Below, in pieces: positions 11,772 through 43,092 of a stretch of 44,559 bases of DNA (positions are counted from its first letter, which is position 1; every line of letters begins with the position of its first letter). The position numbers and the translations under genes are program-made. Below the pieces are notes generated by a model that made no database searches, had not been told where the DNA came from, and saw only the letters and a list, made by a program, of their open reading frames with translations. The stretch comes from Escherichia phage SM_A8. The stretch lies in the sequence record PP920553.1. One strand, given 5' to 3'.

Positions 11772-12090
11772 AAGCGGGACAGGCGGGACGTCCCGTTTTG
11801 TCCCGCCTCTGTAAAACTGCATATCTACTCACTTCCACTGCATAAACTCAAAACGGGACAAGCGGGACGTCCCGTTTTGTCACGCCCTGTAAATATGCAT
11901 ACCTATGCAGATTTCGTGCATAAACCAAACGGGACAAAAAGCGGGACAAACAAGGGGCGGGACAAAGCGGGACAGCACCCCAGTCCCGCCAGTGCTGCCG
12001 CGGGGTTTAGCCGATCGGGACAGGCGGGACAAAGCCCAGTCTTTCAGACTAGACGGGGGTCAATGGCCCCCCTCGTCTGAGACTGAATAA
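11772..12090. repeat. GCGGGACA repeat array region, including 173-bp element copy A (11918-12090)
   Basis: at least 10 direct CGGGACA/CGGGACG copies plus inverted GTCCCGCC copies; two ~80-bp tandem units (11772-11917) then a 173-bp element ending in a GC-rich hairpin; colinear copy at 39640-39812. Confidence 0.7.
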
Positions 12091-16958: not shown

Positions 16959-17566
16959 CCACATTTAAATTATACGGCGTTTTAGGACGTCGATTCGGTA
17001 AAGTGCATAAGCTGGACTGCTTCACTCCTGGCGAGGGTATCACCGGCCTGTGCGTGAAGTTACCCGGCTTACAGGACTTTCTAATGTCGGCCCACCTGGA
17101 CAATATGATGTTCAAGGTGCGCAAAGGCGACCACACGATGACCGGCTATGATGAGCTGGGCGAGTTCCACGGCAACCGCGTAGTTACCATCGCGCCGGTT
17201 ATGACGGGCGCAAAAAGAGGGTTGGGACAATTGCTGGCGGGTGTCGCGATCGTAGTGGCGTCGTTCTATACGGGCGGACTTGCTACTGCCGCTTTCGGGG
17301 CTTCGGCTGCAACCGCTGCCGCTATCGGGACGGCGACGTTTTCGTTCGGGATGTCGATGGCGCTGGGTGGCGTTATGCAATTGCTGTCGCCACAACCGAA
17401 AGGATTGCAGACAAGGCAGGACGTGGATAACAAAGCGTCGTACGCGTTCGGCGGGCCAGTGAATACAACAGCGCAAGGCACGGCGCTTGGTGTATTATGG
17501 GGCGAGCGTGAGATCGGCGGCGCTATTATTTCAGCCGGAATAGTAACCGAGGACTTGAACGAATGA
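16949..17566 (+). CDS. tail assembly protein I-like
   Basis: 205 aa, Gly/Ala-rich hydrophobic C-terminal half; between K-like and J-like genes. Confidence 0.55.
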   Translation: MAMTTFKLYGVLGRRFGKVHKLDCFTPGEGITGLCVKLPGLQDFLMSAHLDNMMFKVRKGDHTMTGYDELGEFHGNRVVTIAPVMTGAKRGLGQLLAGVAIVVASFYTGGLATAAFGASAATAAAIGTATFSFGMSMALGGVMQLLSPQPKGLQTRQDVDNKASYAFGGPVNTTAQGTALGVLWGEREIGGAIISAGIVTEDLNE

Positions 17567-20500
17567 CGATTATCTACGACGTCACAGGGCATAAAGGCGG
17601 CGGCGGCAAACAGCACACCCCGCAGGAGACGCCAGATAGCCTGCATTCGCTGGCTAAAATCCGCATCTTGCTTGCGCTGGGGGAAGGGGAATTCGAAAGT
17701 ATTACCAGCGCCAGCGAATTGCGGCAGCGTGTTTACCTTGATGGAACGCCGATCCAGAACGCTGACTTGTCCGAAAACTTCCCTGGCGCGCGTGTGGAGT
17801 TCCGCCCCGGCACACAGCACCAGGATGTGATCCACGGATTTTCAGCGGTGGAAAGTGAGCAATCTGTCGGCGTAAAACTGGAAAACGGTACGCCGTGGGT
17901 ACGCCAGATTAACGATACCAGTCTGGACGCCGTTCGCATTCGCATCGGAATTCCGGCCCTGTACACTAACGAAGATAATGGCGACCTGGTTGGCGGACGC
18001 ATTGACTATAAGATCGTTGTGTATACGGATAACGCCGACCCGCGTGAGTTCAGATTCGCCGCCGTTGGTAAAACAATGTCGCTGTATGAGCGCGACCACC
18101 GCATCGAATTACCGCCGAACGTGAATACCGGCTGGCGCGTGGAGGTGCACCGCATAACGGCAGACTCCACATCGGCGAAAGTGGTTAATGATATCCGGGT
18201 GCAGTCCATCACTGAGATTATTGACGCCCGCCTGCGTTACCCGCTAACCGCGCTGTTGTTTGTGGAGTTCGACGCCAAAGCGTTCCAGAACATCCCGCGC
18301 GTGTCCATCAAGTGCAAAGGTCGCAAAGTTCTAATACCGAACAACTACGACCCGATCAATCATACCTATTCCGGGGACTGGGACGGCACGTTTAAACGCG
18401 CATGGACGGATAACCCTGCGTGGCACTGGTACGATATTTGTATTACTGAGCGCTTCGGCCTCGGTCGGCGTATCAAACCGCAAATGCTAAACCGATACGC
18501 GCTCTACCAGATTGCGCAGCGCTGCGATCAGTTGGTCAGCGACGGCAACGGTGGTAGAGAAATCCGCTTTAAGAATGATATGTACATTCAGTCACAGACG
18601 GATGCCTGGACCGTGCTTAAGGATTTAGCCGCCATCTTCGCCGGAATGACCTGGTGGGGCAACCAGATGTTGAATATCGTAAGTGACCAGCCGGTCGCAG
18701 CGGTATCGCACACTATCACCAACGCCTCGGTTATTGATGGCAGATTAGACTACGCGTCAGGGAGCCAGAAAACTCGCTATTCCACGTTCGCTGTAGCATA
18801 CGGCAACCCGAAGAACCACTATGAAGATGCTATAGCAACGGGGCAACGTGTCGAACTGGTACGCCGCCATAAGATTAACCGTCTTGATATTACGGCGATC
18901 GGCTGTACGCGTGAATCTGAAGCGCAACGTCGCGGGCACTGGGCGCTAATTTCCAACCAGCTTGACCAGCAAGTTAGCTTTAAAGTTGGCATGGAAGGGT
19001 TATTCTTTATTCCCGGTAGCGTAGTCGCGATCGCGGATACAAACATTTCTGGCGGTTTTGAGACGCGCGGCGGTCGACTGTTGTCGGACCCCGGAAATCG
19101 TACCGTGCTGAACACGGACAGCGAAATCACATTCCGCACTGGCGATAAGTTCCTGGTACGCACCGATAGCGGTAATGTGGAGACTCGCGAGATCGCCAGC
19201 GTCAACGGCAACAAGGTAACGCTAAAAACCGCACTGGACGCCAACCCTATTCCTGACCAGCCGTTTTGCGTTGATGGCGACGATATCCAGTTGCAGAAAT
19301 TCCGCATCACCGACCTGGAGTATGACGACTCTACGAGCACTTTCTCGGTGCGCGGGATTGAGTACAACGATAGCAAGTATGATGCCGTTGATAATGGCGC
19401 GCGCCTTGATCCGGGTATCTTTACGCAAGTGCCTGACGGGGTAATGAAGGGGCCGGAATCCGTGACCATTACCCCGTCGCAGATTTCATCGCAAGGCCAG
19501 CTAATCACCAACGTGGATATTGTGTTCCCGCCGGTGAAGGATGCCGTGGTGTATGAAATCCAGTGGAGGCGTACCAGCCTTCAGAATATGGAAATCCAGT
19601 GGGGTAACGACTGGGTGAATATCCCACGCACGGCGTCGAATGGGGCGCACATCCCTAACGTGTTCTCCGGTAACTACCAGGCACGCGTCCGCGCGATCGG
19701 TATGGGCGAGATTTCATCTCCGTGGGTGTCGTCCGCCATCACGCCGGTGGAAGGTCGTCTCGGTGGGCTTAACGCACCAATCATCACCAACGCTATTTCG
19801 GGCCTTCACCAGATCTTGTGGAAGTGGAACCACAACAACGCCGCTACTGATATCTCGTACACCGAGCTTGAAGTGCGCAAGACCGGTGAGACTGAATGGA
19901 AATTCCTTACCAACGTCCCATACCCGGGGTCGGAGTATGCGCAAACGTCGCTGGAGTTCGGCATCTATCAGCAGTTGCGCGCCCGTGTAGCGGATAAAAT
20001 CGGCAACCTGTCGGACTGGTCGGCCCCGTTTGAAGGGCAGGTGAGTGACAATGTTGACGAGTATATGAAGGGGCTGGACGACGAGTTCTTGACTTCTGAG
20101 GACGGTAAACGCTTCCAGGAAGCGATCGACACCATGCCGCAAGGCATTTATGAGGCTATGCTCACCGACGCACAGCAGTTGTTTAACGCCCGCGCCGAGT
20201 ACCAGGGGATTTACGCAGAAATCAAGGTGGCGTATAACGTGGCGGCAGATGCCCACCAGGCGGTAGCGCAACTGGAAACGTTGATCGGTACTCGCCTTGA
20301 CGATGCTGAAGCGGCAATCCACACGTTGCAGACAGCGCAGAGTACGCAGGAACAAGCGTTCGCCCAGTACCAGCAAACCGTCTCTGCTAAGTTTGGCGAA
20401 CAGGAAGCCGCAATCCAGCAGGTGCAAACGGCGACAAGTGACGTAGCAAGCGCGCTTGCGGAGTATAAGACACAGGTCGCGGCGCAGTTCGGTCAGCAGT

Positions 20501-20982
20501 CCGCAGCTATCGAGCAGAAGATGACGTCCTCGTTTAACCACTCCGGTGGTAGCGCAACTTACAGCCTTAAGGCTGGCGTGACGTATAACGGGACTTACTA
20601 CGATGCCGGTATGCAGCTTTCCGTTGTGACGTCTGGCAACGCGGTTAAATCGCGTATTGCGTTCAAGGCGGACCAGTTCTACATCATGCATCCGTCCAAT
20701 GGGACGCTGTCGTCTGCGTTTATTGTGGACGGTGGCGCGGTGTATATCGACACGGCACGCATCAAGAACGCGTCCATCAACTTCGCGCAGATAACAGACA
20801 CGCTGCAATCGAATAACTACGACGGCAGCACGCTAGGCTGGCGCTTAGGGAAAGATGGAACGTTTATCAACCTGGGCACCGGTAGCGGCGGCGGGATGAA
20901 ACAGACGAACACAAGAATCAGCGTGAAGGACGGAAACGGCGTTCTCCGCGTGCAAATTGGCGAGCTTACTGGTAGCTGGTAG
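17563..20982 (+). CDS. central tail fiber / host specificity protein J-like
   Basis: 1139 aa; position and size match lambda J; start overlaps upstream stop. Confidence 0.8.
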   Translation: MTIIYDVTGHKGGGGKQHTPQETPDSLHSLAKIRILLALGEGEFESITSASELRQRVYLDGTPIQNADLSENFPGARVEFRPGTQHQDVIHGFSAVESEQSVGVKLENGTPWVRQINDTSLDAVRIRIGIPALYTNEDNGDLVGGRIDYKIVVYTDNADPREFRFAAVGKTMSLYERDHRIELPPNVNTGWRVEVHRITADSTSAKVVNDIRVQSITEIIDARLRYPLTALLFVEFDAKAFQNIPRVSIKCKGRKVLIPNNYDPINHTYSGDWDGTFKRAWTDNPAWHWYDICITERFGLGRRIKPQMLNRYALYQIAQRCDQLVSDGNGGREIRFKNDMYIQSQTDAWTVLKDLAAIFAGMTWWGNQMLNIVSDQPVAAVSHTITNASVIDGRLDYASGSQKTRYSTFAVAYGNPKNHYEDAIATGQRVELVRRHKINRLDITAIGCTRESEAQRRGHWALISNQLDQQVSFKVGMEGLFFIPGSVVAIADTNISGGFETRGGRLLSDPGNRTVLNTDSEITFRTGDKFLVRTDSGNVETREIASVNGNKVTLKTALDANPIPDQPFCVDGDDIQLQKFRITDLEYDDSTSTFSVRGIEYNDSKYDAVDNGARLDPGIFTQVPDGVMKGPESVTITPSQISSQGQLITNVDIVFPPVKDAVVYEIQWRRTSLQNMEIQWGNDWVNIPRTASNGAHIPNVFSGNYQARVRAIGMGEISSPWVSSAITPVEGRLGGLNAPIITNAISGLHQILWKWNHNNAATDISYTELEVRKTGETEWKFLTNVPYPGSEYAQTSLEFGIYQQLRARVADKIGNLSDWSAPFEGQVSDNVDEYMKGLDDEFLTSEDGKRFQEAIDTMPQGIYEAMLTDAQQLFNARAEYQGIYAEIKVAYNVAADAHQAVAQLETLIGTRLDDAEAAIHTLQTAQSTQEQAFAQYQQTVSAKFGEQEAAIQQVQTATSDVASALAEYKTQVAAQFGQQSAAIEQKMTSSFNHSGGSATYSLKAGVTYNGTYYDAGMQLSVVTSGNAVKSRIAFKADQFYIMHPSNGTLSSAFIVDGGAVYIDTARIKNASINFAQITDTLQSNNYDGSTLGWRLGKDGTFINLGTGSGGGMKQTNTRISVKDGNGVLRVQIGELTGSW

Positions 20983-21018: not shown

Positions 21019-21321
21019 ATGGCATTCGGTATCGCAACGTGGGACGCGCAAGGACGCCCAAACAACTACGGCATTAAACCGGTAAGCGTGATCGGAAGGA
21101 TTCATCTTGCGGAAGGACAAAAATCAGGCGCATGGTCATTCCCTGTACCGGCGGGGATGAAGGTCGGATACGTGGTCGCACTGGATAAAGGCGCGGTCGG
21201 GCCAGGCCGCAGAATAACCGCCAGCGGGAACACTATCACGGTTTCCGCGGCAAGTGCGGTAGGTGGCGGGGTTTACTCCGCATCTGAATGTGACGTTATT
21301 GTTTTTGTGGAGCGAGCATAA
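21019..21321 (+). CDS. hypothetical protein (tail-associated by position)
   Basis: 100-aa ORF downstream of J-like gene; start overlaps the next gene. Confidence 0.5.
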   Translation: MAFGIATWDAQGRPNNYGIKPVSVIGRIHLAEGQKSGAWSFPVPAGMKVGYVVALDKGAVGPGRRITASGNTITVSAASAVGGGVYSASECDVIVFVERA

Positions 21322-21995
21322 TGGCTAATTACGGCGCGTTGATTGACTTACCAAACGGCAACCCGTTTATCACACCAGAATCGACGCCGTTTTGTCTATT
21401 CCGCCGTGTGGTTGTTGGGTCTTCGGCTAACGGCACTGCGCAGTCGGCGGCTGCCGATATTAATTTGGGTGGTGACTACCCTGCAATAGCGTTTGTGAAA
21501 ACTACGCACACCGCCCAGCCGACCGTCGTAGGGTCTTCTCGCGTTGGTAATGTGGTGAAGGTGAGCGCCAGCAATCCATTCGGGCAAGGCTTCACGATGA
21601 CGGCTTACATCTTTGCCATATTCCCACAGACCCTTCCGCGGTGGGGCTTCGCTATTTGGGATAAGACGGGGAAGCTAGTGCTTACTAATGAGAGTCGCGT
21701 ACTAAGCGATTTAGTTACCGTCGGATCGCCAGGCGCTAACGGGGGGATTAACATTGACCAGACGCTAAATGGCAGCTACGCCGTCGCTCCGGGCATATTG
21801 GGGTCTACGCTGATCCGGTTTTTTGTGCAGGGCCAGCCGCAAGTAATATCGGTAACGGCGTACACGGGGGCCAGATTTGATGGGTCGCGAACGCGTATAT
21901 CGGCAGCGTCGTCGGGGAACGCCACGGGGGATGTGGTGGGGTATACTAACAACGGCAACGCGATTATGGCGATTAACACGGCCAATTATGATTGA
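21321..21995 (+). CDS. hypothetical protein (tail-associated by position)
   Basis: 224-aa ORF, Gly/Ser/Thr-rich; no motif recognised. Confidence 0.5.
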   Translation: MANYGALIDLPNGNPFITPESTPFCLFRRVVVGSSANGTAQSAAADINLGGDYPAIAFVKTTHTAQPTVVGSSRVGNVVKVSASNPFGQGFTMTAYIFAIFPQTLPRWGFAIWDKTGKLVLTNESRVLSDLVTVGSPGANGGINIDQTLNGSYAVAPGILGSTLIRFFVQGQPQVISVTAYTGARFDGSRTRISAASSGNATGDVVGYTNNGNAIMAINTANYD

Positions 21996-21999
21996 AGAA

Positions 22000-22020
22000 A
22001 GCCCCGAAAGGGGCTTATTT
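22000..22020. terminator. bidirectional terminator candidate
   Basis: AGCCCC-gaaa-GGGGCT then TATTTG; between convergent genes and overlapping the lipoprotein stop codon. Confidence 0.5.
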
Positions 22021-22236
22021 GCAGGTTGTGCTTTTGAAATGGTCTACAGACACGTACTGGAAGCTGAACGGATAGCCAGCCCTTAGCATTTTATGCCCGG
22101 AGAAGTCTGCAACACCATACACAGGGACCGCATAATCCATACCGCCAGTGTGGTATGTCGCCTCGCAGATCTTGCCAGGCATCGTGGAGCATCCTACCAG
22201 CACCGCAACTACACAGGCTAAAAGTAAAGTTTTCAT
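22015..22236 (-). CDS. small lipoprotein, putative receptor-blocking superinfection exclusion protein (Llp/Cor-like)
   Basis: 73 aa; signal peptide MKTLLLACVVAVLVGC with lipobox, two further Cys; RBS AGGGGA; own promoter; sits between host-specificity gene block and tail fiber on the opposite strand. Confidence 0.55.
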   Translation of the reverse strand: MKTLLLACVVAVLVGCSTMPGKICEATYHTGGMDYAVPVYGVADFSGHKMLRAGYPFSFQYVSVDHFKSTTCK

Positions 22237-22295: not shown

Positions 22296-22316
22296 CCAAT
22301 TTACGAGGATTTAGCT

Positions 22317-24032
22317 ATGGCAGCGGGTACGCTATCAGTAACGAACAACAGCAAGGCGGTAGTAGGGGTCGGCACGACGTTTACCGCGTTTAAAGCTGGC
22401 GACTTCTTAACGCTGGTGGTAGGACAAGTCCCATACACCGTGGCAATCGCGTCCATTGAAAGCGCAACCGCGCTCACGCTGGTGTTGCCGTTCGACGGCC
22501 CAACGGCAACCGGCCTTGCGTGGGATGGCGTTAAGCGCGACACCATGTCACTGGCGACGATGGGCGTTACCGTACAGGCACAAAAAGCATTGCGCTTGAT
22601 GATCGCAGATGAAAACAACTGGCGTGCAATCTTCGGCGACGCTGAAGAAATCACCGTGACGCTACCTAACGGGCAGGTTATGCAGGGAATGTCATGGGGC
22701 TATCTGTCGTCTTTGCTTAAGAACGTAGACCCAGTTGAGATGCGCGACCTGCAACAGCAAGCCGTAACAGCGAAAAACCAGGCAGTTACGGCTAATGGGC
22801 AAGCGGAAGCGGCACGCGACGCTGCCGTAACAGCGAAAAACCAGGCAGTTACGGCTAAGGGGCAAGCGGAAGCGGCACGCGACGCTGCGAACACGGCTAA
22901 GACTGGCGCGGAGGCGGCCCGCAATCAGGCCGAACAATTCGCTAATAGTGTTAATACTGAAAACCTACTTGCGAAGGCCAACAACTTAAGCGATGTTGCG
23001 GATATGGGTGTAACGCGCGAAAACATTGGCGTAGACCGCCTATCGCAAAACATAACCAGCGGCGAAACACAAATCAGGACTGCGGCGAAGAATAAATGGA
23101 TCTTCGTTAAGGAAAATGGCGACTGGGGCGGGTGGGATAATGCCAACAATAAAGCCATGCCGCTGCCGATTGCATTCGGTGGTACGGGGCGCGGCGATAA
23201 CGTCGCCGAGTTCCGCCAATTCAAATCAAACGGCGACACCCAAGATGGGTTAATCATTACGCAGAACGACAACGGATTCGGTGGTGTGGGCTGGGCCGAT
23301 TCCGCGGATAAAGTACGCTGGCGTATGGGCATCGACGAAGCCTCTGGCCATTTTAAAATATACTCATACGACTCCGCGGGAGCGTATCGAGACACCGTCC
23401 TCGAGATCACCGGAGTAGGAGTCGGTGGCATGGTGTGGTCCCGTGATATTACCGTGCGCCCGACGACGGCAGTTCCTGCGCGGTCTTTCGTTCTAAACAA
23501 CGGAAAAGCTACCGTCCCGGCTGGTAACTTCCGCACGATGTGGGATACGGTTAATATCAATAGTAACCAGATCTATAAATATTTTGAGAAGGGAGACGGC
23601 ACTGGCTTTACAGTCAATTGGCCCTCATCTGGTGGTGTTATTGCCCTCCAGGGTACATCAGGAAGGGACTTTAAGAAAGATATTACCGACGCGGACGTTA
23701 CCGAAGCGGTTGCACGCATTGAACAAATGCGCATGGTGCGCTACGTGTATAAGGACGATGTGAAGGAGCGCGTCCGCTTCGGCATCATTGCCGAAGAAGC
23801 AGAAGAGATTGCGCCTCAATACATCAAACACCGTGAGGAGACGTACGATGTGGAGGTGGACCCCGAGACTAACGCCATCGTCGGGGGTAAGACGCGCGAC
23901 CGTCCGTCGGTGGACGTTAACCCTATCGTGATGGACTTGATGGGGTGCGCACAATATGCGATCGCTGAGTGTAAACGCCTGGCGGCGGAAGTGGAGGATT
24001 TGAAAGCCGAGATCGCGGCGTTGAAGAAATAA
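22317..24032 (+). CDS. tail fiber protein with C-terminal intramolecular chaperone (peptidase S74-like) domain
   Basis: ATG 22317 with GAGGA RBS (track start 22290 is TTG); 63-bp tandem repeat at 22761-22886; C-terminus matches the S74 chaperone pattern (RFGIIAEEAEEIAPQYI ... LAAEVEDLKAEIAALKK). Confidence 0.7.
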   Translation: MAAGTLSVTNNSKAVVGVGTTFTAFKAGDFLTLVVGQVPYTVAIASIESATALTLVLPFDGPTATGLAWDGVKRDTMSLATMGVTVQAQKALRLMIADENNWRAIFGDAEEITVTLPNGQVMQGMSWGYLSSLLKNVDPVEMRDLQQQAVTAKNQAVTANGQAEAARDAAVTAKNQAVTAKGQAEAARDAANTAKTGAEAARNQAEQFANSVNTENLLAKANNLSDVADMGVTRENIGVDRLSQNITSGETQIRTAAKNKWIFVKENGDWGGWDNANNKAMPLPIAFGGTGRGDNVAEFRQFKSNGDTQDGLIITQNDNGFGGVGWADSADKVRWRMGIDEASGHFKIYSYDSAGAYRDTVLEITGVGVGGMVWSRDITVRPTTAVPARSFVLNNGKATVPAGNFRTMWDTVNINSNQIYKYFEKGDGTGFTVNWPSSGGVIALQGTSGRDFKKDITDADVTEAVARIEQMRMVRYVYKDDVKERVRFGIIAEEAEEIAPQYIKHREETYDVEVDPETNAIVGGKTRDRPSVDVNPIVMDLMGCAQYAIAECKRLAAEVEDLKAEIAALKK

Positions 24033-24038
24033 ATAGAA

Positions 24039-24060
24039 GGGGCCATGCGGCCCCTTTTTT
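24039..24060. terminator. terminator hairpin between convergent tail fiber and leftward operon
   Basis: GGGGCC-atgc-GGCCCC followed by T6. Confidence 0.6.
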
Positions 24061-24634
24061 AGTTTGAGTTTTCCCAGTCCATTTTGCGCCGCACCAGCGG
24101 GCTTTCGTAATATTCCTTTCCTTCCACTTCCACCAAAGGCCAGTCGTTCACAATCACGTACGGCTCCGCGATATCCTCAATCACGCCGTGCGCGCTTTGC
24201 GGCACTAACGACACACCAACCAGGATAACACCGGCAACACGACGGGCGAGATACTCGCGAGCGCAGCGTGCCTCTACCAGTCCGCGACGGATGCCGCTGG
24301 TGGCCTTAACTTCGTAGGTCCATACGGCATCGATCACATGCTCCCTGAAGTCTGGTCCTGATTTAACCTTGCGCTTTCCGACCATGATGATATCTCCGCG
24401 ATCAATGGTATTGGCGCTAAACAGGCCGGTACGCATGAGCAAGCCTTGAGGGATACAACTGCGCCCGCCCGCCTGCCCCTCAAGGTACATGCCTGCAAAC
24501 ATTTCGCCCAGCACACCGACCAGTCGGCTTTGCTTGCACGCGTCGGACTTTAAGCGCCATTGGTCAAACTCGATGCTTGCTATCATTGCCGCTAGGTGGA
24601 ATTGTTTACCAGATATTTCGTATTCGCCGTACAT
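24059..24634 (-). CDS. hypothetical protein, possible PD-(D/E)XK-type nuclease
   Basis: 191 aa; weak E ... GDIIMV ... YEVK pattern; last gene of leftward module. Confidence 0.45.
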   Translation of the reverse strand: MYGEYEISGKQFHLAAMIASIEFDQWRLKSDACKQSRLVGVLGEMFAGMYLEGQAGGRSCIPQGLLMRTGLFSANTIDRGDIIMVGKRKVKSGPDFREHVIDAVWTYEVKATSGIRRGLVEARCAREYLARRVAGVILVGVSLVPQSAHGVIEDIAEPYVIVNDWPLVEVEGKEYYESPLVRRKMDWENSN

Positions 24635-35968: not shown

Positions 35969-36484
35969 TTAATCTTCCAGTTCGAAATAGGTTTCGACGA
36001 TTTCTTTTAGCTCTTTGTGGAAGTCTTCGACGTCGTCATCTTCCAGCTTGGCGATTGATTTGATCTCGAACGATTCCAGCAGGTCGTCGAATTCGTCGTT
36101 CGCGTCATCATCATCACCGCCTGCAATAATAGCGGCATACTGCTTGATTTCGTCGCGCATTTCGACCAGCGGATCGGCATCTTTCTTACCTTTGCCTTTC
36201 GCCGGTGCTTTCTTAGCCTTAGCCGGTTTTTCGTCTTCGGCATCGTCGTCGTCATCTTCTACGACTTCTTTTTTAGCCTTACCTTTCGCCGGTGCTTTTT
36301 TAGATTTAGCCGGTTTTTCGTCTTCAGCTTCATCGTCGTCATCTTCGACAACTTCTTTTTTGGCCTTAGACGGCTTCTTGTCTTCCTGCTTACCAACGGC
36401 AGCGCCAACGGTTTCATAATGCTTTGCAATGGTTTCCAGTGCTACTACGCCGCGAGTGATCAGGTTTACGATTTGCTCAAACAT
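35969..36484 (-). CDS. acidic/lysine-rich repeat protein (first gene of leftward early operon)
   Basis: ATG 36484 with GGAGAT RBS; two 29-aa repeats (KKEVVEDDDDEAEDEKPAKSKKAPAKGKA) from an 87-bp tandem DNA repeat; poly-D C-terminal region. Confidence 0.55.
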   Translation of the reverse strand: MFEQIVNLITRGVVALETIAKHYETVGAAVGKQEDKKPSKAKKEVVEDDDDEAEDEKPAKSKKAPAKGKAKKEVVEDDDDDAEDEKPAKAKKAPAKGKGKKDADPLVEMRDEIKQYAAIIAGGDDDDANDEFDDLLESFEIKSIAKLEDDDVEDFHKELKEIVETYFELED

Positions 36485-36679
36485 GGTATATCTCCGATTG
36501 GTTAAGTTTAGGTGTCGGCAGTTAACTTCGTCGGTGGCCTTAACATATTGCCAGGTTACGCGTTCTCCCGTTCGGGTAGTGGACCTGGTTATATAATCAC
36601 GGTTGGGAATCCTGACACTTCGATCCGGCCCCTGCGTTGCCCCTCTCCAGTTTGCGTCCTGCATCCTGTCGACGGAGTG

Positions 36680-36708
36680 AATATTAGATTGGTTGCAGAA
36701 GGGAGTCA
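36680..36708 (-). promoter_or_regulatory. leftward early promoter (P2)
   Basis: minus-sense TTGACT-N17-TAATAT with a GCAACCAA copy in the spacer; about 190 nt upstream of first leftward gene. Confidence 0.5.
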
Positions 36709-36719
36709 ACAACTAATTT

Positions 36720-39639: not shown

Positions 39640-39812
39640 GCATAAAGTAAGCGGGACAAAAAGCGGGACAAACAAGGGGCGGGACAAAGCGGGACAGCAC
39701 CCCTGTCCCGCCACGGATGGCGCGGCTTCCAGAGGAGCGGGACAGGCGGGACAAACCCCAGTCTTTCAGACTAGACGGGGGTCAGTGGCCCCCCTCGTCT
39801 GAGACTGAATAA
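39640..39812. repeat. 173-bp repeat element copy B with GCGGGACA array and GC-rich hairpin
   Basis: colinear with 11918-12090, no indels; CGGGACA copies at identical offsets (12, 24, 40, 50, 98, 107); central ~26 nt diverged. Confidence 0.7.
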
Positions 39813-42043: not shown

Positions 42044-42285
42044 TTATCTCCGTCCTGTTGTTTGTTATCATCGGGGCTTCGTCCCTGTTTAACGTGTATG
42101 CGCCGTCCGTCCGGGATGGCATTTTCGGTCGGGTGCTGTATCTGTTAACGGCAATGGTCTGTATTATCGGATTGCTGCAAACAGGCGACGTATCGGATAC
42201 CACCTGGACCGCGTTAATCTGGCTGTTTGCATTGCGCACCCTGCGTAATGCTGTTTTGAATGGGGTAAAACATGCGATTCAGTGA
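42040..42285 (+). CDS. membrane protein (second holin or antiholin candidate)
   Basis: 81 aa, three hydrophobic segments; ATGA-coupled between holin-like gene and endolysin. Confidence 0.4.
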   Translation: MIISVLLFVIIGASSLFNVYAPSVRDGIFGRVLYLLTAMVCIIGLLQTGDVSDTTWTALIWLFALRTLRNAVLNGVKHAIQ

Positions 42286-42763
42286 CAACGGTCTACGATT
42301 TACGGCAGCATGGGAGCAATTCAGCCCAGTGCCGTATTTTGCGACTAAGAAAGAGCAGGCCCGCGGCCTGTATACCTGGGGCTATGGTCACACCGGCACT
42401 AATCCGCCGCGGAGCATTACCCGTGCGGAAGCACTGGAGCTACTCAAGCGCGACGTGGCGTATGCCGAGAACTGGGTAAACAAGTACGCACACCCGAGCA
42501 TCAACCAGGCGCAATTCGACGCGCTGGTGGACCTGGTTATCAATGCCGGTCCTGGTCCGATCATGCCGGACGACGTCGCCGGAGACTTCGACGATGCGAT
42601 CCGCCTGGGTGACTGGGCAAAGGTCCGTGCTACGCTGCCACAATTCCGCAAGCAAGGCGGGGCAGTGCTCAAGGGGCTTGTCCGTCGTGCAATCGGCAGG
42701 CAGGCACTATTTGATGGTAAGCAGTGGGACGTTGCCGAGAAAATCGGGCGAAACGCCGCATAA
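42272..42763 (+). CDS. endolysin (GH24 lysozyme-like)
   Basis: catalytic Glu context AAWEQF, GYGHTG, ITRAEALELLKRD, INQAQFDALVDLVINAG, GLVRRAIGRQALF match the P22/lambda lysozyme pattern. Confidence 0.8.
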   Translation: MRFSDNGLRFTAAWEQFSPVPYFATKKEQARGLYTWGYGHTGTNPPRSITRAEALELLKRDVAYAENWVNKYAHPSINQAQFDALVDLVINAGPGPIMPDDVAGDFDDAIRLGDWAKVRATLPQFRKQGGAVLKGLVRRAIGRQALFDGKQWDVAEKIGRNAA

Positions 42764-42779
42764 TACGAGGAGACACAGT

Positions 42780-43092
42780 ATGTTAAAAAGCATTCTTGAT
42801 CATAACGCCGACGCGCTCGCCGCGCTGGCTAAAACCGAAGACCCAGGCGCTCGCCGCGCTGGCTAAAACCGAAGACCCAGGCGCTCGCGCCATTATCGCG
42901 GACACTATCAGTCATGCTGGCGTATTTGACGCGAAGCTGCCTAGCCCGCCGCCACAGGCGCTCGCCGCGCTGGCTAAAACCGAAGACCCAGGCGCTCGCG
43001 CCATTATCGCGGACACTATCAGTCATGCTGGCGTATTTGACGCGAAGCTGCCTAGCCCGCCGCCACAGGAAGAATCTGACCCAGTGACGTAA
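42780..43092 (+). pseudogene. repeat-protein gene with apparent frameshift inside tandem repeats
   Basis: ATG 42780 with GAGGAG RBS reads 28 codons to TAA 42864-42866; the rest (two 111-bp repeat units ending at TAA 43090-43092) continues in the +1 frame; one 36-bp sub-repeat copy is 2 nt short. Confidence 0.4.

What the first reader, a model, noticed from the sequence alone, without database searches (positions are those of the whole stretch)
22317..24032. Tail fiber with a 63-bp in-frame tandem duplication and a C-terminal intramolecular chaperone domain
The 63-bp unit at 22761-22823 is repeated at 22824-22886 with one substitution (protein AVTAKNQAVTA(N/K)GQAEAARDA x2). The C-terminal ~120 residues match the self-cleaving chaperone pattern of phage fibers and tailspikes. 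The receptor-binding part lies between them, so this is the most likely host-range determinant and a recombination hotspot.
Basis: partly seen in the sequence, partly recalled or inferred. Interest (0 to 1): 0.4.

Follow-up and report, generated by a model that had tools for sequence, protein, structure and literature searches.

The report
Phage side fibre with duplicated shaft

Summary
Bases 22761-22823 and 22824-22886 are a 63-bp in-frame tandem duplication that differs at one base (T22796 vs G22859; N160 vs K181). The gene (22317-24032, 571 aa) is the lateral tail fibre of a Dhillonvirus-like siphophage. Its last 124 residues are a Peptidase_S74 intramolecular chaperone (Pfam 44.9 bits against a cutoff of 22). 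S448 and K453 are invariant, and T447-S448...K453 copies the phage T5 pb1 cleavage site.

New here:
- A metagenomic contig (L011) carries the single-copy allele, about 100% identical over roughly 600 bp apart from a clean 63-bp gap. The duplication is therefore recent, and it was found in no other collection searched.
- The repeat lies in an Ala-rich heptad coiled coil (aa 142-211), and 21 aa is three heptads.
- In 98 of 99 homologues the shaft length falls in a single residue class modulo 7 (38 to 136 aa).
- The gene is a patchwork: a genus-wide N-terminus, a rare shaft type, and a distal module shared with T1-like ADB-2 and T5-like LtfB fibres, whose receptor is attributed to O81 O-antigen.

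One caveat: the fibre is one of two host-range loci, not the only one. Overall this is a new allele of a known kind and of low interest.

The parts
22305..22309 (+). Ribosome-binding site GAGGA, 7 nt upstream of the ATG
   Evidence: Read directly from the sequence. Most relatives annotate the equivalent ATG as the start.
22317..24032 (+). Lateral tail fibre gene: 571-aa precursor (61.5 kDa), stop codon included
   Evidence: ORF; phrog_1980 tail fiber E 9e-133; orthologues in Dhillonvirus genomes annotated '(lateral) tail fiber protein'; masses.
22317..22739 (+). N-terminal domain (aa 1-141), conserved across the genus; presumed virion-attachment part
   Evidence: 86-98% nucleotide identity to all 11 compared dhillonviruses. 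The protein is nearly invariant over aa 1-148. The attachment role is inferred from PMC8594841 and from LtfA in PMC10713586.
22740..22949 (+). Ala-rich heptad coiled-coil shaft (aa 142-211, 10 heptads)
   Evidence: In 10 of 10 heptads position 1 is A or M and position 4 is A, L or F. AlphaFold predicts one continuous helix over 139-211 with pLDDT 71-88. Homologue shaft lengths are quantised in sevens.
22761..22823 (+). Repeat copy 1 (aa 149-169, AVTAKNQAVTANGQAEAARDA); carries the derived T22796 (Asn160)
   Evidence: TRF and direct comparison. This copy is the segment missing from single-copy allele L011.
22824..22886 (+). Repeat copy 2 (aa 170-190, AVTAKNQAVTAKGQAEAARDA); identical to the single copy in L011
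   Evidence: Lys at this position is also the state in Sponge-type single-copy shafts.
22950..23657 (+). Distal part of the mature fibre (aa 212-447): NLSDVAD collar motif plus a beta-rich, presumed receptor-binding region
   Evidence: Shared at 74% aa identity with the T1-like ADB-2 fibre and at 78% (aa 312 onward) with T5-like DT571/2 LtfB. Strands are predicted but at low confidence. Receptor binding is inferred.
23307..23486 (+). Recombinant patch inside the distal region (aa ~331-390): SECphi18-type sequence
   Evidence: 91-97% identity to SECphi18 against 63-78% to all other close relatives, including L011.
23655..23675 (+). Predicted autocleavage site: T447 | S448 G R D F K453 (Ser codon 23658-23660, Lys codon 23673-23675)
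   Evidence: S448 and K453 are invariant in 52 homologues. The Pfam S74 match starts at profile position 2 = aa 449. The arrangement matches T5 Thr1263-Ser1264...Lys1269 (PMC4690869). Coordinates.
23658..24029 (+). Intramolecular chaperone domain (aa 448-571, 14.1 kDa), ending in a long helix at 536-570
   Evidence: Pfam PF13884. PDB 8hqz_d LtfA C-terminus, E 9e-46, and MyRF ICA 7dc3, E 1e-3. Foldseek hits 7dc3, 3gw6 and 3gud at probability about 1.0. pLDDT 63-85.
24035..24058 (.). GC-rich hairpin terminator shared with the convergent downstream gene (24059-24634, minus strand)
   Evidence: The terminator scan finds it on both strands.
17563..20982 (+). Context: gpJ-like central tail fibre / tip attachment protein (1139 aa)
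   Evidence: Pfam FNIII-A_GpJ, Phage-tail_3 and Phage_Tail_Tip.
21019..22236 (.). Context: putative terminal-receptor RBP locus (100-aa and 224-aa ORFs on the plus strand) and a cor-like lipoprotein gene (22015-22236, minus strand). This is the other host-range locus.
   Evidence: ORFs. Equivalent genes in SECphi18, SM_W22 and Sponge are annotated as Cor superinfection exclusion protein. The role of the locus is from PMC8594841.

Best explanation
The gene encodes the lateral (side) tail fibre of a Dhillonvirus-type siphophage. Each chain has four parts: (i) a genus-conserved N-terminal domain (aa 1-141) that presumably anchors the fibre to the tail; (ii) a parallel, presumably trimeric, alanine-rich coiled coil (aa 142-211); (iii) a collar and beta-rich distal region (aa 212-447) that presumably binds a surface glycan, most likely an O-antigen, as reversible primary receptor; (iv) a 124-residue Peptidase_S74 intramolecular chaperone (aa 448-571). 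The chaperone nucleates trimer folding and then removes itself by Ser448/Lys453-catalysed cleavage of the T447-S448 bond, leaving a mature fibre of about 47.3 kDa. The 63-bp tandem duplication is a recent, lineage-specific slippage or illegitimate-recombination event with only 2 bp of junction microhomology. It added exactly three heptads (21 aa, about 3 nm of helix) to the coiled coil. It is tolerated because it preserves the heptad register, as do nearly all other insertions and deletions in this shaft across the genus. It lengthens the fibre but should not alter receptor specificity. Shown here: the duplication, the single-copy allele, heptad quantisation, chaperone homology with a conserved dyad, and the mosaic structure. 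Inferred: trimer state, cleavage, receptor identity, and any phenotypic effect of the extra length.
For: Duplication and frame. Single-copy allele L011 is about 100% identical over 22617-23216 except for a 63-bp gap, and its copy equals window copy 2, so T22796 arose after the duplication. Heptads: 10/10 have A/M at position 1 and A/L/F at position 4. A continuous helix is predicted over 139-211 at pLDDT 71-88. The related LtfA fibre forms a three-helix coiled coil just after its N-terminal domain (PMC10713586). Shaft length between the DPVE[ML] and NLxDx anchors is 3 mod 7 in 98/99 homologues and in 11/12 length classes, 38 to 136 aa. Relatives show independent duplications of 14 aa and 35 aa and a 63-aa deletion, all multiples of 7. 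Chaperone: Pfam 44.9 bits vs cutoff 22; S448 and K453 invariant; 8hqz LtfA C-terminus E 9e-46 and MyRF ICA E 1e-3; fold matches to three solved IMC/ICA domains; T-S-x4-K as in T5 pb1 (PMC4690869). Fibre identity and synteny. Distal module is 78% identical to LtfB, whose receptor is attributed to O81 O-antigen (PMC4728585, PMC10713586).
Against: No experimental data exist for this phage. The AlphaFold monomer model is poor overall (mean pLDDT 54, and below 50 across most of aa 270-449), so the receptor-binding fold is not established. Alanine at both core positions is unusual for a stable coiled coil, and the oligomeric state was not modelled. The upstream 'folding sensor' residues of T5 (Arg1250, Asp1239) were not mapped here. 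The O81 attribution for LtfB is itself genetic and indirect, and the window differs from LtfB at 22% of positions, so the receptor may differ. The two-copy allele was seen only in this window, so it rests on one assembly.
Confidence: 0.85

Rival explanations
1. The extra three heptads are adaptive: shaft length is a tuned 'reach' parameter that sets how far the receptor-binding tip extends through O-antigen or capsule layers of different thickness. On this view the duplication was selected on a particular host rather than being a tolerated, near-neutral length polymorphism.
For: The same distal module (over 70% identity) occurs with five shaft lengths: 38, 59, 80, 101 and 115 aa. Ten of 18 distal-module clusters carry more than one length. 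This shows frequent, surviving length changes that are independent of receptor-module type.
Against: The same pattern is expected if any in-register indel is simply neutral. There is no correlation with host data and no phenotype. The most common lengths (101 and 122) dominate across many module types, which argues for weak stabilising selection rather than tuning.
Confidence: 0.2
2. The duplication is an assembly or sequencing artefact, and the real phage carries one copy.
For: The two-copy junction was found in no other phage record, in none of the three contig collections scanned for it, and in no catalogued protein. The same window holds another, perfectly identical, 111-bp tandem duplication at 42844-43069, which could hint at an assembler problem.
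Against: The copies differ at one base, which assemblers do not invent. The whole array is 126 bp and can be spanned by single short reads. The insertion is exactly in frame and in heptad register. Analogous natural duplications exist in relatives from independent laboratories.
Confidence: 0.05
3. The C-terminal domain is a degenerate, non-cleaving relic, or works as a retained structural cap, so the virion carries the full-length protein.
For: Cleavage has not been shown for any Dhillonvirus fibre. Some auto-chaperone-like C-termini, such as the P22 tailspike caudal fin, are not removed (PMC4690869, Discussion).
Against: The Ser and Lys are invariant in 52 homologues even though the preceding domains are unrelated. 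The domain is 92-100% conserved at nucleotide level among close relatives. The motif T-S-x4-K is identical to that of the experimentally cleaved T5 pb1 (PMC4690869).
Confidence: 0.05
4. This fibre is the principal host-range determinant of the phage, rather than an accessory primary-receptor binder.
For: In DT57C and DT571/2 the lateral fibres are essential on strains that make O-antigen (PMC4728585). The lateral fibre locus is one of the two most variable regions of Dhillonvirus genomes (PMC8594841, S2A Fig legend).
Against: Terminal receptor specificity (FhuA, LptD, LamB and others) in small siphoviruses, including Dhillonvirus, maps to the RBP locus downstream of gpJ (PMC8594841). That locus is present here at 21019-21995, next to a cor-like gene. 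T5-type lateral fibres are dispensable on rough strains (PMC4728585).
Confidence: 0.3

Closest known systems
Lateral tail fibres of Dhillonvirus phages SECphi18 (YP_010844208), SO-1 gp25, Oekolampad gp27, EE09 and SM_W22
   Same: Same genomic position (after gpJ, the RBP locus and the lipoprotein/cor gene; convergent with a 191-aa gene). Same N-terminal 148 aa. Same distal module and chaperone (90-100% nucleotide identity over most of 22947-24032)..
   Different: Their shafts belong to another sequence family (AAASEAAAQGFRNEAEGF...) and differ in length from the window's (38, 101 or 115 aa against 80). The window also carries a SECphi18-type patch at 23307-23486 that the others lack.
Unnamed fibre P0001 on Logan contig SRR10580544_65 (locus L011)
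   Same: The only other protein with the AVTAKNQAVTAKGQAEAARDA shaft type joined to this distal module. DNA is about 100% identical from 22617 to 23216.
   Different: It has one copy of the 63-bp unit (549 aa). It differs in the 23217-23516 patch (72-88% identity) and by one codon at 23421-23423.
[quoted passage not shown] 2015, PMC4690869)
   Same: Same logic: a side fibre of a siphophage that binds O-antigen reversibly, with the receptor-binding domain directly followed by a C-terminal intramolecular chaperone of about 130 aa. That chaperone cleaves at Thr-Ser with a Lys five residues downstream. The proximal part of the T5-type fibre LtfA is a three-helix coiled coil (PMC10713586).
   Different: pb1 has 1396 aa with an unrelated bullet-shaped receptor domain. 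phmmer did not detect pb1 itself. The N-terminal attachment domain is unrelated.
DT57C / DT571/2 LtfB and LtfA (T5-like branched fibres; PMC4728585, PMC10713586, PDB 8hqz)
   Same: LtfB aa 513-764 are 78% identical to window aa 312-570, covering the distal receptor region and the chaperone. The LtfA C-terminus matches the chaperone at E 9e-46.
   Different: LtfB attaches to LtfA rather than to the tail and has a different N-terminal two-thirds. Its receptor (O81-type O-antigen) is attributed genetically and may not carry over to the window protein.
Endosialidase (K1F endoNF) and GA-1/phi29 gp12 intramolecular chaperones; MyRF ICA domain (PDB 3gw6, 3gud, 7dc3)
   Same: Same Pfam family (PF13884) and same fold by Foldseek (probability about 1.0; TM 0.54 to 3gud).
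   Different: Only 14-24% sequence identity. The domains they fold are tailspikes, appendages or a eukaryotic transcription factor, not this fibre.

Membership tests
Peptidase_S74 / C-terminal intramolecular chaperone (IMC) domain | Significant match to the family profile above the curated threshold | tested here: met
   PF13884, E 1.5e-11, 44.9 bits against a cutoff of 22, aa 449-502 = profile positions 2-56 of 58.
Peptidase_S74 / C-terminal intramolecular chaperone (IMC) domain | Catalytic Ser at the domain boundary with a Lys five residues downstream (T5: Ser1264/Lys1269) | tested here: met
   S448 and K453 are 2 of only 12 invariant columns in 52 diverse homologues. The preceding residue is Thr447, as in T5 Thr1263 (PMC4690869).
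Peptidase_S74 / C-terminal intramolecular chaperone (IMC) domain | IMC fold: a mixed alpha/beta unit ending in a long helix that forms the trimeric coiled coil | tested here: met
   The model over aa 450-570 has pLDDT 63-85 with a helix at 536-570. Top Foldseek hits are 7dc3, 3gw6 and 3gud, all IMC/ICA domains. This is a monomer model only.
Peptidase_S74 / C-terminal intramolecular chaperone (IMC) domain | Position at the extreme C-terminus of a trimeric fibre or spike protein | tested here: met
   The domain spans aa 448-571 of 571, in a protein matching tail fibre families.
Peptidase_S74 / C-terminal intramolecular chaperone (IMC) domain | Autoproteolytic release after folding, so that the mature virion protein lacks the domain | not testable with these tools
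   Needs SDS-PAGE or mass spectrometry of virions. Predicted masses are 47.3 kDa mature against 61.5 kDa precursor.
Peptidase_S74 / C-terminal intramolecular chaperone (IMC) domain | Upstream Arg/Asp 'folding sensor' that forms the oxyanion hole (T5 Arg1250, Asp1239) | not tested
   There is no reliable alignment or model of aa 400-447 (pLDDT below 50). R406 and D410 are conserved among close relatives, but equivalence was not established.
Dhillonvirus lateral tail fibre (phrog_1980) | Full-length profile match and the genus-conserved N-terminal domain | tested here: met
   phrog_1980, E 9.3e-133, aa 1-571. aa 1-148 are nearly invariant across 11 phages.
Dhillonvirus lateral tail fibre (phrog_1980) | Conserved genomic position: gpJ, RBP locus, lipoprotein/cor gene, fibre, then a convergent 191-aa gene | tested here: met
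   The window gene order matches SECphi18, SM_W22, EE09, Sponge, Over9000 and L011.
Parallel trimeric alpha-helical coiled-coil shaft | Heptad periodicity with small or hydrophobic residues at two core positions | tested here: met
   10/10 heptads over aa 142-211. Indels across 99 homologues are quantised in sevens, with one exception.
Parallel trimeric alpha-helical coiled-coil shaft | Continuous alpha-helix | tested here: met
   DSSP helix 139-211, pLDDT 71-88.
Parallel trimeric alpha-helical coiled-coil shaft | Three parallel chains | not testable with these tools
   Inferred from the trimeric IMC family and from the LtfA three-helix coiled coil (PMC10713586). No multimer prediction tool was available.
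O81-O-antigen-binding LtfB-type receptor module | Sequence homology of the distal region to DT571/2 LtfB | tested here: met
   78% identity and 89% positives over window aa 312-570.
O81-O-antigen-binding LtfB-type receptor module | Binding to O81-type O-antigen | not testable with these tools
   This needs adsorption and host-range assays. The attribution for LtfB itself is genetic (PMC4728585).

The most novel reading that the evidence does not exclude
Shaft length in Dhillonvirus lateral fibres is an evolvable 'ruler'. Heptad-quantised duplications and deletions (38 to 136 aa between fixed anchors) arise often by slippage in the low-complexity Ala/Thr/Gln-rich coding repeats. They would be selected to match the depth of the O-antigen or capsule layer of the current host, independently of the receptor-binding module. 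On this reading the window's three-heptad duplication would be a caught-in-the-act example, with its one-copy parent still circulating.
Probability: 0.2. Interest if true: 0.45.

Novelty: new member of a known kind. Interest (0 to 1): 0.2.

Why it matters
The practical value is in annotation and engineering. The report gives exact domain boundaries, a predicted cleavage site (T447|S448) and a candidate receptor class for a phage fibre. It also shows that the shaft accepts insertions or deletions of whole heptads, and that the distal module can be swapped between Dhillonvirus, T1-like and T5-like fibres. These are useful rules for designing chimeric fibres. The one-copy/two-copy allele pair would allow a direct test of whether fibre length affects adsorption. 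None of this changes current understanding of tail fibres. Self-cleaving chaperones, mosaic fibres and register-preserving coiled-coil indels are all established ideas.

Tried and rejected
1. phmmer of the whole protein and of the C-terminal 142 aa against PDB sequences did not reach T5 pb1, endoNF or GA-1 gp12 directly. The link to those came only from Pfam and from the fold search.
2. The AlphaFold2 monomer model built from a 52-sequence alignment was too poor in aa 270-449 (pLDDT 25-55) to say anything about the receptor-binding fold, so I ran no further fold searches on it. Foldseek hits outside the chaperone (OspA, beta-propellers and others, E above 0.01) were disregarded as noise.
3. 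NCBIfam gave only a meaningless sub-threshold hit to a MarR-type regulator. The Pfam DUF1843 and DUF4230 hits are below their cutoffs.
4. I searched for other carriers of the two-copy junction using a back-translated ARDA|AVTAKNQA pattern. IMG/VR, JGI metagenomes and GTDB genomes gave 0 matches. The positive control in the window matched once, at 22812-22846. An exact-protein look-up found nothing.
5. A literature search for heptad-quantised duplications in tail fibres found nothing specific.
6. My first anchor patterns for measuring the shaft were too strict and missed about half of the homologues. The relaxed anchors gave the figures I quote.
7. The promoter scan around the gene found nothing above the level of shuffled sequence.
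8. I considered a diversity-generating retroelement or a phase-variation mechanism and dropped both. The variation is a single exact duplication in a structural shaft rather than adenine-directed substitutions in the binding region, and I did not look for a reverse transcriptase gene.
Full report
**Observation.** The window has a 63-bp unit at 22761-22823 that is repeated head-to-tail at 22824-22886. Tandem Repeats Finder scores it 249 (period 63, 2.0 copies, 98% matches). A base-by-base comparison finds a single difference, T22796 against G22859. The array starts at codon 149 of the ORF that begins at ATG 22317, so it is in frame. The gene limits are also as stated. A GAGGA ribosome-binding site lies 7 nt before the ATG. 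The TAA stop ends at 24032. A GC-rich hairpin terminator at 24035-24058 is shared with a convergent gene.

**What the gene is.** The window is a Dhillonvirus-type siphophage genome. Its first 25 kb match 113 phage records over at least 80% of their length at 90-95% identity, with Escherichia phage SM_W22 closest at 94%. The 571-aa product matches PHROG 1980 'tail fiber protein' end to end (E 9e-133). It occupies the same position as the annotated '(lateral) tail fiber protein' genes of SECphi18, SO-1, Oekolampad, EE09 and SM_W22. That position is after the gpJ-like tip protein (17563-20982; Pfam FNIII-A_GpJ, Phage-tail_3, Phage_Tail_Tip), two small ORFs and a cor-like lipoprotein gene, and before a convergent 191-aa gene.

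**The chaperone domain.**
- Pfam PF13884 (Peptidase_S74, 'chaperone of endosialidase') matches aa 449-502 at 44.9 bits, against a curated cutoff of 22.
- The last ~150 residues match the C-terminus of DT57C LtfA (PDB 8hqz) at E 9e-46, and the MyRF ICA domain (7dc3) at E 1e-3.
- In a 52-sequence alignment of homologues with very different distal domains, only 12 columns are invariant. Two of them are S448 and K453.
- The local sequence is LQGT447-S448-GRDF-K453. In phage T5 pb1 the scissile bond is Thr1263-Ser1264 and Lys1269 activates the serine. The Ser1264Ala mutant does not cleave (PMC4690869).
- An AlphaFold2 monomer model is poor overall (mean pLDDT 54) but reaches 63-85 over aa 450-570. 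Its best Foldseek matches in the PDB are all intramolecular chaperone domains: MyRF ICA 7dc3, endosialidase IMC 3gw6 and GA-1 gp12 IMC 3gud (TM 0.54).
- I therefore predict cleavage between T447 and S448. This would give a 47.3-kDa mature fibre and a 14.1-kDa released chaperone from a 61.5-kDa precursor. Cleavage itself is inferred, not shown.

**Where the repeat sits.** Residues 142-211 read as ten consecutive heptads: MRDLQQQ, AVTAKNQ, AVTANGQ, AEAARDA, AVTAKNQ, AVTAKGQ, AEAARDA, ANTAKTG, AEAARNQ, AEQFANS. Position 1 is A or M in all ten, and position 4 is A, L or F in all ten. The model predicts one unbroken helix over 139-211 with pLDDT 71-88, the most confident part of the protein. In the cryo-EM structure of DT57C, the lateral fibre LtfA forms a three-helix coiled coil directly after its N-terminal attachment domain (PMC10713586). 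So the 21-aa repeat unit is exactly three heptads. The duplication should extend the coiled coil by about 3 nm without disturbing its register. The repeat is in the shaft, not in the receptor-binding part.

**The duplication is recent and lineage-specific.** A search of 5.8 billion protein clusters returned, as best hit, a 549-aa protein (P0001) from a 27.5-kb Logan contig. At DNA level its gene is about 100% identical to the window from 22617 to 23216, except for a clean 63-bp gap at 22761-22823. Its single copy is identical to the window's second copy (AAG, Lys). Lys is also the state in the more distant single-copy shafts of Sponge, EP23, Over9000 and StarDew. T22796 (Asn160) is therefore a substitution that arose after the duplication. 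Only 2 bp (GC) are shared at the junction, which points to slippage or illegitimate recombination rather than homologous exchange. The two-copy junction was not found in INPHARED phages, IMG/VR, JGI metagenomes or GTDB genomes (positive control). The exact protein is absent from the 15-billion-sequence collection.

**Heptad-quantised length variation.** I measured the distance between two conserved anchors, DPVE[ML] at the end of the N-terminal domain and the NL[SNTA][DG][VLI] collar motif, in the window protein and its 120 best homologues.
- Of the 99 with both anchors, 98 have a length equal to 3 modulo 7.
- The length classes are 38, 59, 66, 80 (the window, unique), 87, 94, 101, 108, 115, 122 and 136 aa.
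- The single exception is EC115 at 116 aa, which has one extra residue.
- Relatives show their own independent events: a 14-aa duplication in Oekolampad and EE09, a 63-aa deletion in SM_W22, and a 35-aa repeat in Sponge, EP23 and StarDew. All are multiples of seven.
- The same distal module (over 70% identity) occurs with shaft lengths 38, 59, 80, 101 and 115. Ten of 18 distal-module clusters carry more than one length.

This is what a register constraint on a coiled coil predicts. Whether particular lengths are selected cannot be decided from sequence.

**Mosaic structure.** Sliding identity against eleven relatives shows the following patches.

| Window region | Closest sequences |
|---|---|
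| 22317-22766 | Conserved in all (86-98%) |
| 22767-22946 (shaft) | Close only to L011 (100%); 37-76% to the rest |
| 22947-23216 | All SO-1-type fibres (90-100%) |
| 23307-23486 | SECphi18 only (91-97%, against 63-78% for the others, including L011) |
| 23487-24032 | Shared by all SO-1-type fibres (86-100%, mostly 92% or higher) |

Beyond the genus, the distal module from aa ~170 onward is 74% identical to the fibre of T1-like phage ADB-2, which has an unrelated N-terminus. From aa 312 onward it is 78% identical to LtfB of T5-like DT571/2. It is 86% identical to a protein on a 196-kb E. coli chromosomal contig (P0015). [quoted passage not shown] The 'recombination hotspot' reading is therefore supported.

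**Function and host range.** By analogy with T5 pb1 and DT57C LtfA, the specificity region lies directly before the cleavage site (PMC4690869, PMC4728585). The receptor-binding part should therefore be within aa ~240-447. The LtfB relative is attributed to O81-type O-antigen (PMC4728585, PMC10713586), which gives a candidate receptor class but not an identification. The BASEL authors propose that Dhillonvirus lateral fibres bind O-antigen glycans as primary receptor. They assign terminal-receptor specificity (FhuA, LptD, LamB) to the RBP locus downstream of gpJ (PMC8594841). That locus is present here at 21019-21995, next to a cor-like lipoprotein gene. So the fibre is one of two host-range loci. 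By analogy with T5-like phages it is probably dispensable on rough laboratory strains (PMC4728585).

**Comparison with known systems, and novelty.** In mechanism and in family membership this is a Peptidase_S74-bearing lateral tail fibre, a well-described class. Its orthologues in at least nine sequenced phages are already annotated as tail fibres. New items are the particular allele (a rare shaft type, the duplication and a SECphi18-type patch), the identification of its single-copy parent, and the quantitative heptad rule for this genus. I did not find that rule stated in the searched literature, but it follows from textbook coiled-coil geometry. I classify the finding as a new member of a known kind, with low interest.

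**Limits.** There is no experimental evidence for this phage. No multimer modelling was possible. The receptor-binding region could not be modelled with confidence. The two-copy allele rests on a single assembly.

Noticed in passing
window 42813-43069: A second in-frame tandem duplication in the same genome: 111 bp x 2.0 at 42844-43069, 100% identical (37 codons), overlapping a 34-bp x 2.2 array at 42813-42888. It lies inside ORF 42796-43092 (+), just downstream of ORF 42272-42763, which I read as endolysin-like from its sequence alone; no domain search was run. Perfect identity means it is either very recent or an assembly artefact.
   Followed up: partly
window 36180-36368: An 87-bp x 2.2 tandem repeat (87% matches) inside a 247-aa acidic, lysine-rich ORF on the minus strand (35969-36712). 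The repeat encodes a KKEVVEDDDD-AEDEKPAK-KKAPAKGK unit.
   Followed up: partly
window 11775-11974 and 39649-39696: A 79-bp x 2.1 repeat and short arrays built on GCGGGACAA-type motifs occur at two distant places in the genome. They may be regulatory repeats or protein-binding sites.
   Followed up: no
window 22317-22535 (fibre aa 1-73): The first 73 residues resemble the N-terminus of PDB 23gd_B 'Distal tail protein gp20' (E 2.7e-4) and phrog_9922 'minor tail protein'. This hints that the fibre's attachment domain is a module shared with tail-tip proteins of other phages.
   Followed up: no
P0061 (Escherichia phage EC115 fibre), shaft region: This is the only one of 99 homologues whose shaft is out of heptad register (116 aa, one extra residue). 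The sequence AETAKKTGAETARDA looks like a deletion junction that left an 8-residue 'skip'.
   Followed up: partly
L003 and L005 (Oekolampad, EE09), L004 (SM_W22), L007/L008/L010 (Sponge, EP23, StarDew) fibre genes: Independent register-preserving events occur in relatives: a 14-aa duplication (QLKADTQAIKDQTT), a 63-aa deletion, and a 35-aa repeat (…GQAESARDAANTAKTGAE.AR…).
   Followed up: yes
P0015 (E. coli contig of 196 kb), P0017 (phage ADB-2), P0054 (DT571/2 LtfB): The same distal receptor-plus-chaperone module sits on unrelated N-terminal domains in an E. coli chromosomal protein I presume to be prophage-encoded (context not examined), a T1-like phage and a T5-like phage. This suggests module exchange across phage families and possibly lifestyles.
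   Followed up: partly
window 21019-22236: The putative terminal-receptor locus consists of 100-aa and 224-aa ORFs with no Pfam match, plus a 73-aa lipoprotein with a lipobox (LVGC) on the minus strand that relatives annotate as Cor superinfection exclusion. SO-1 and Oekolampad carry a different cassette here (a 966-nt minus-strand gene), so this locus is also swapped between relatives.
   Followed up: partly
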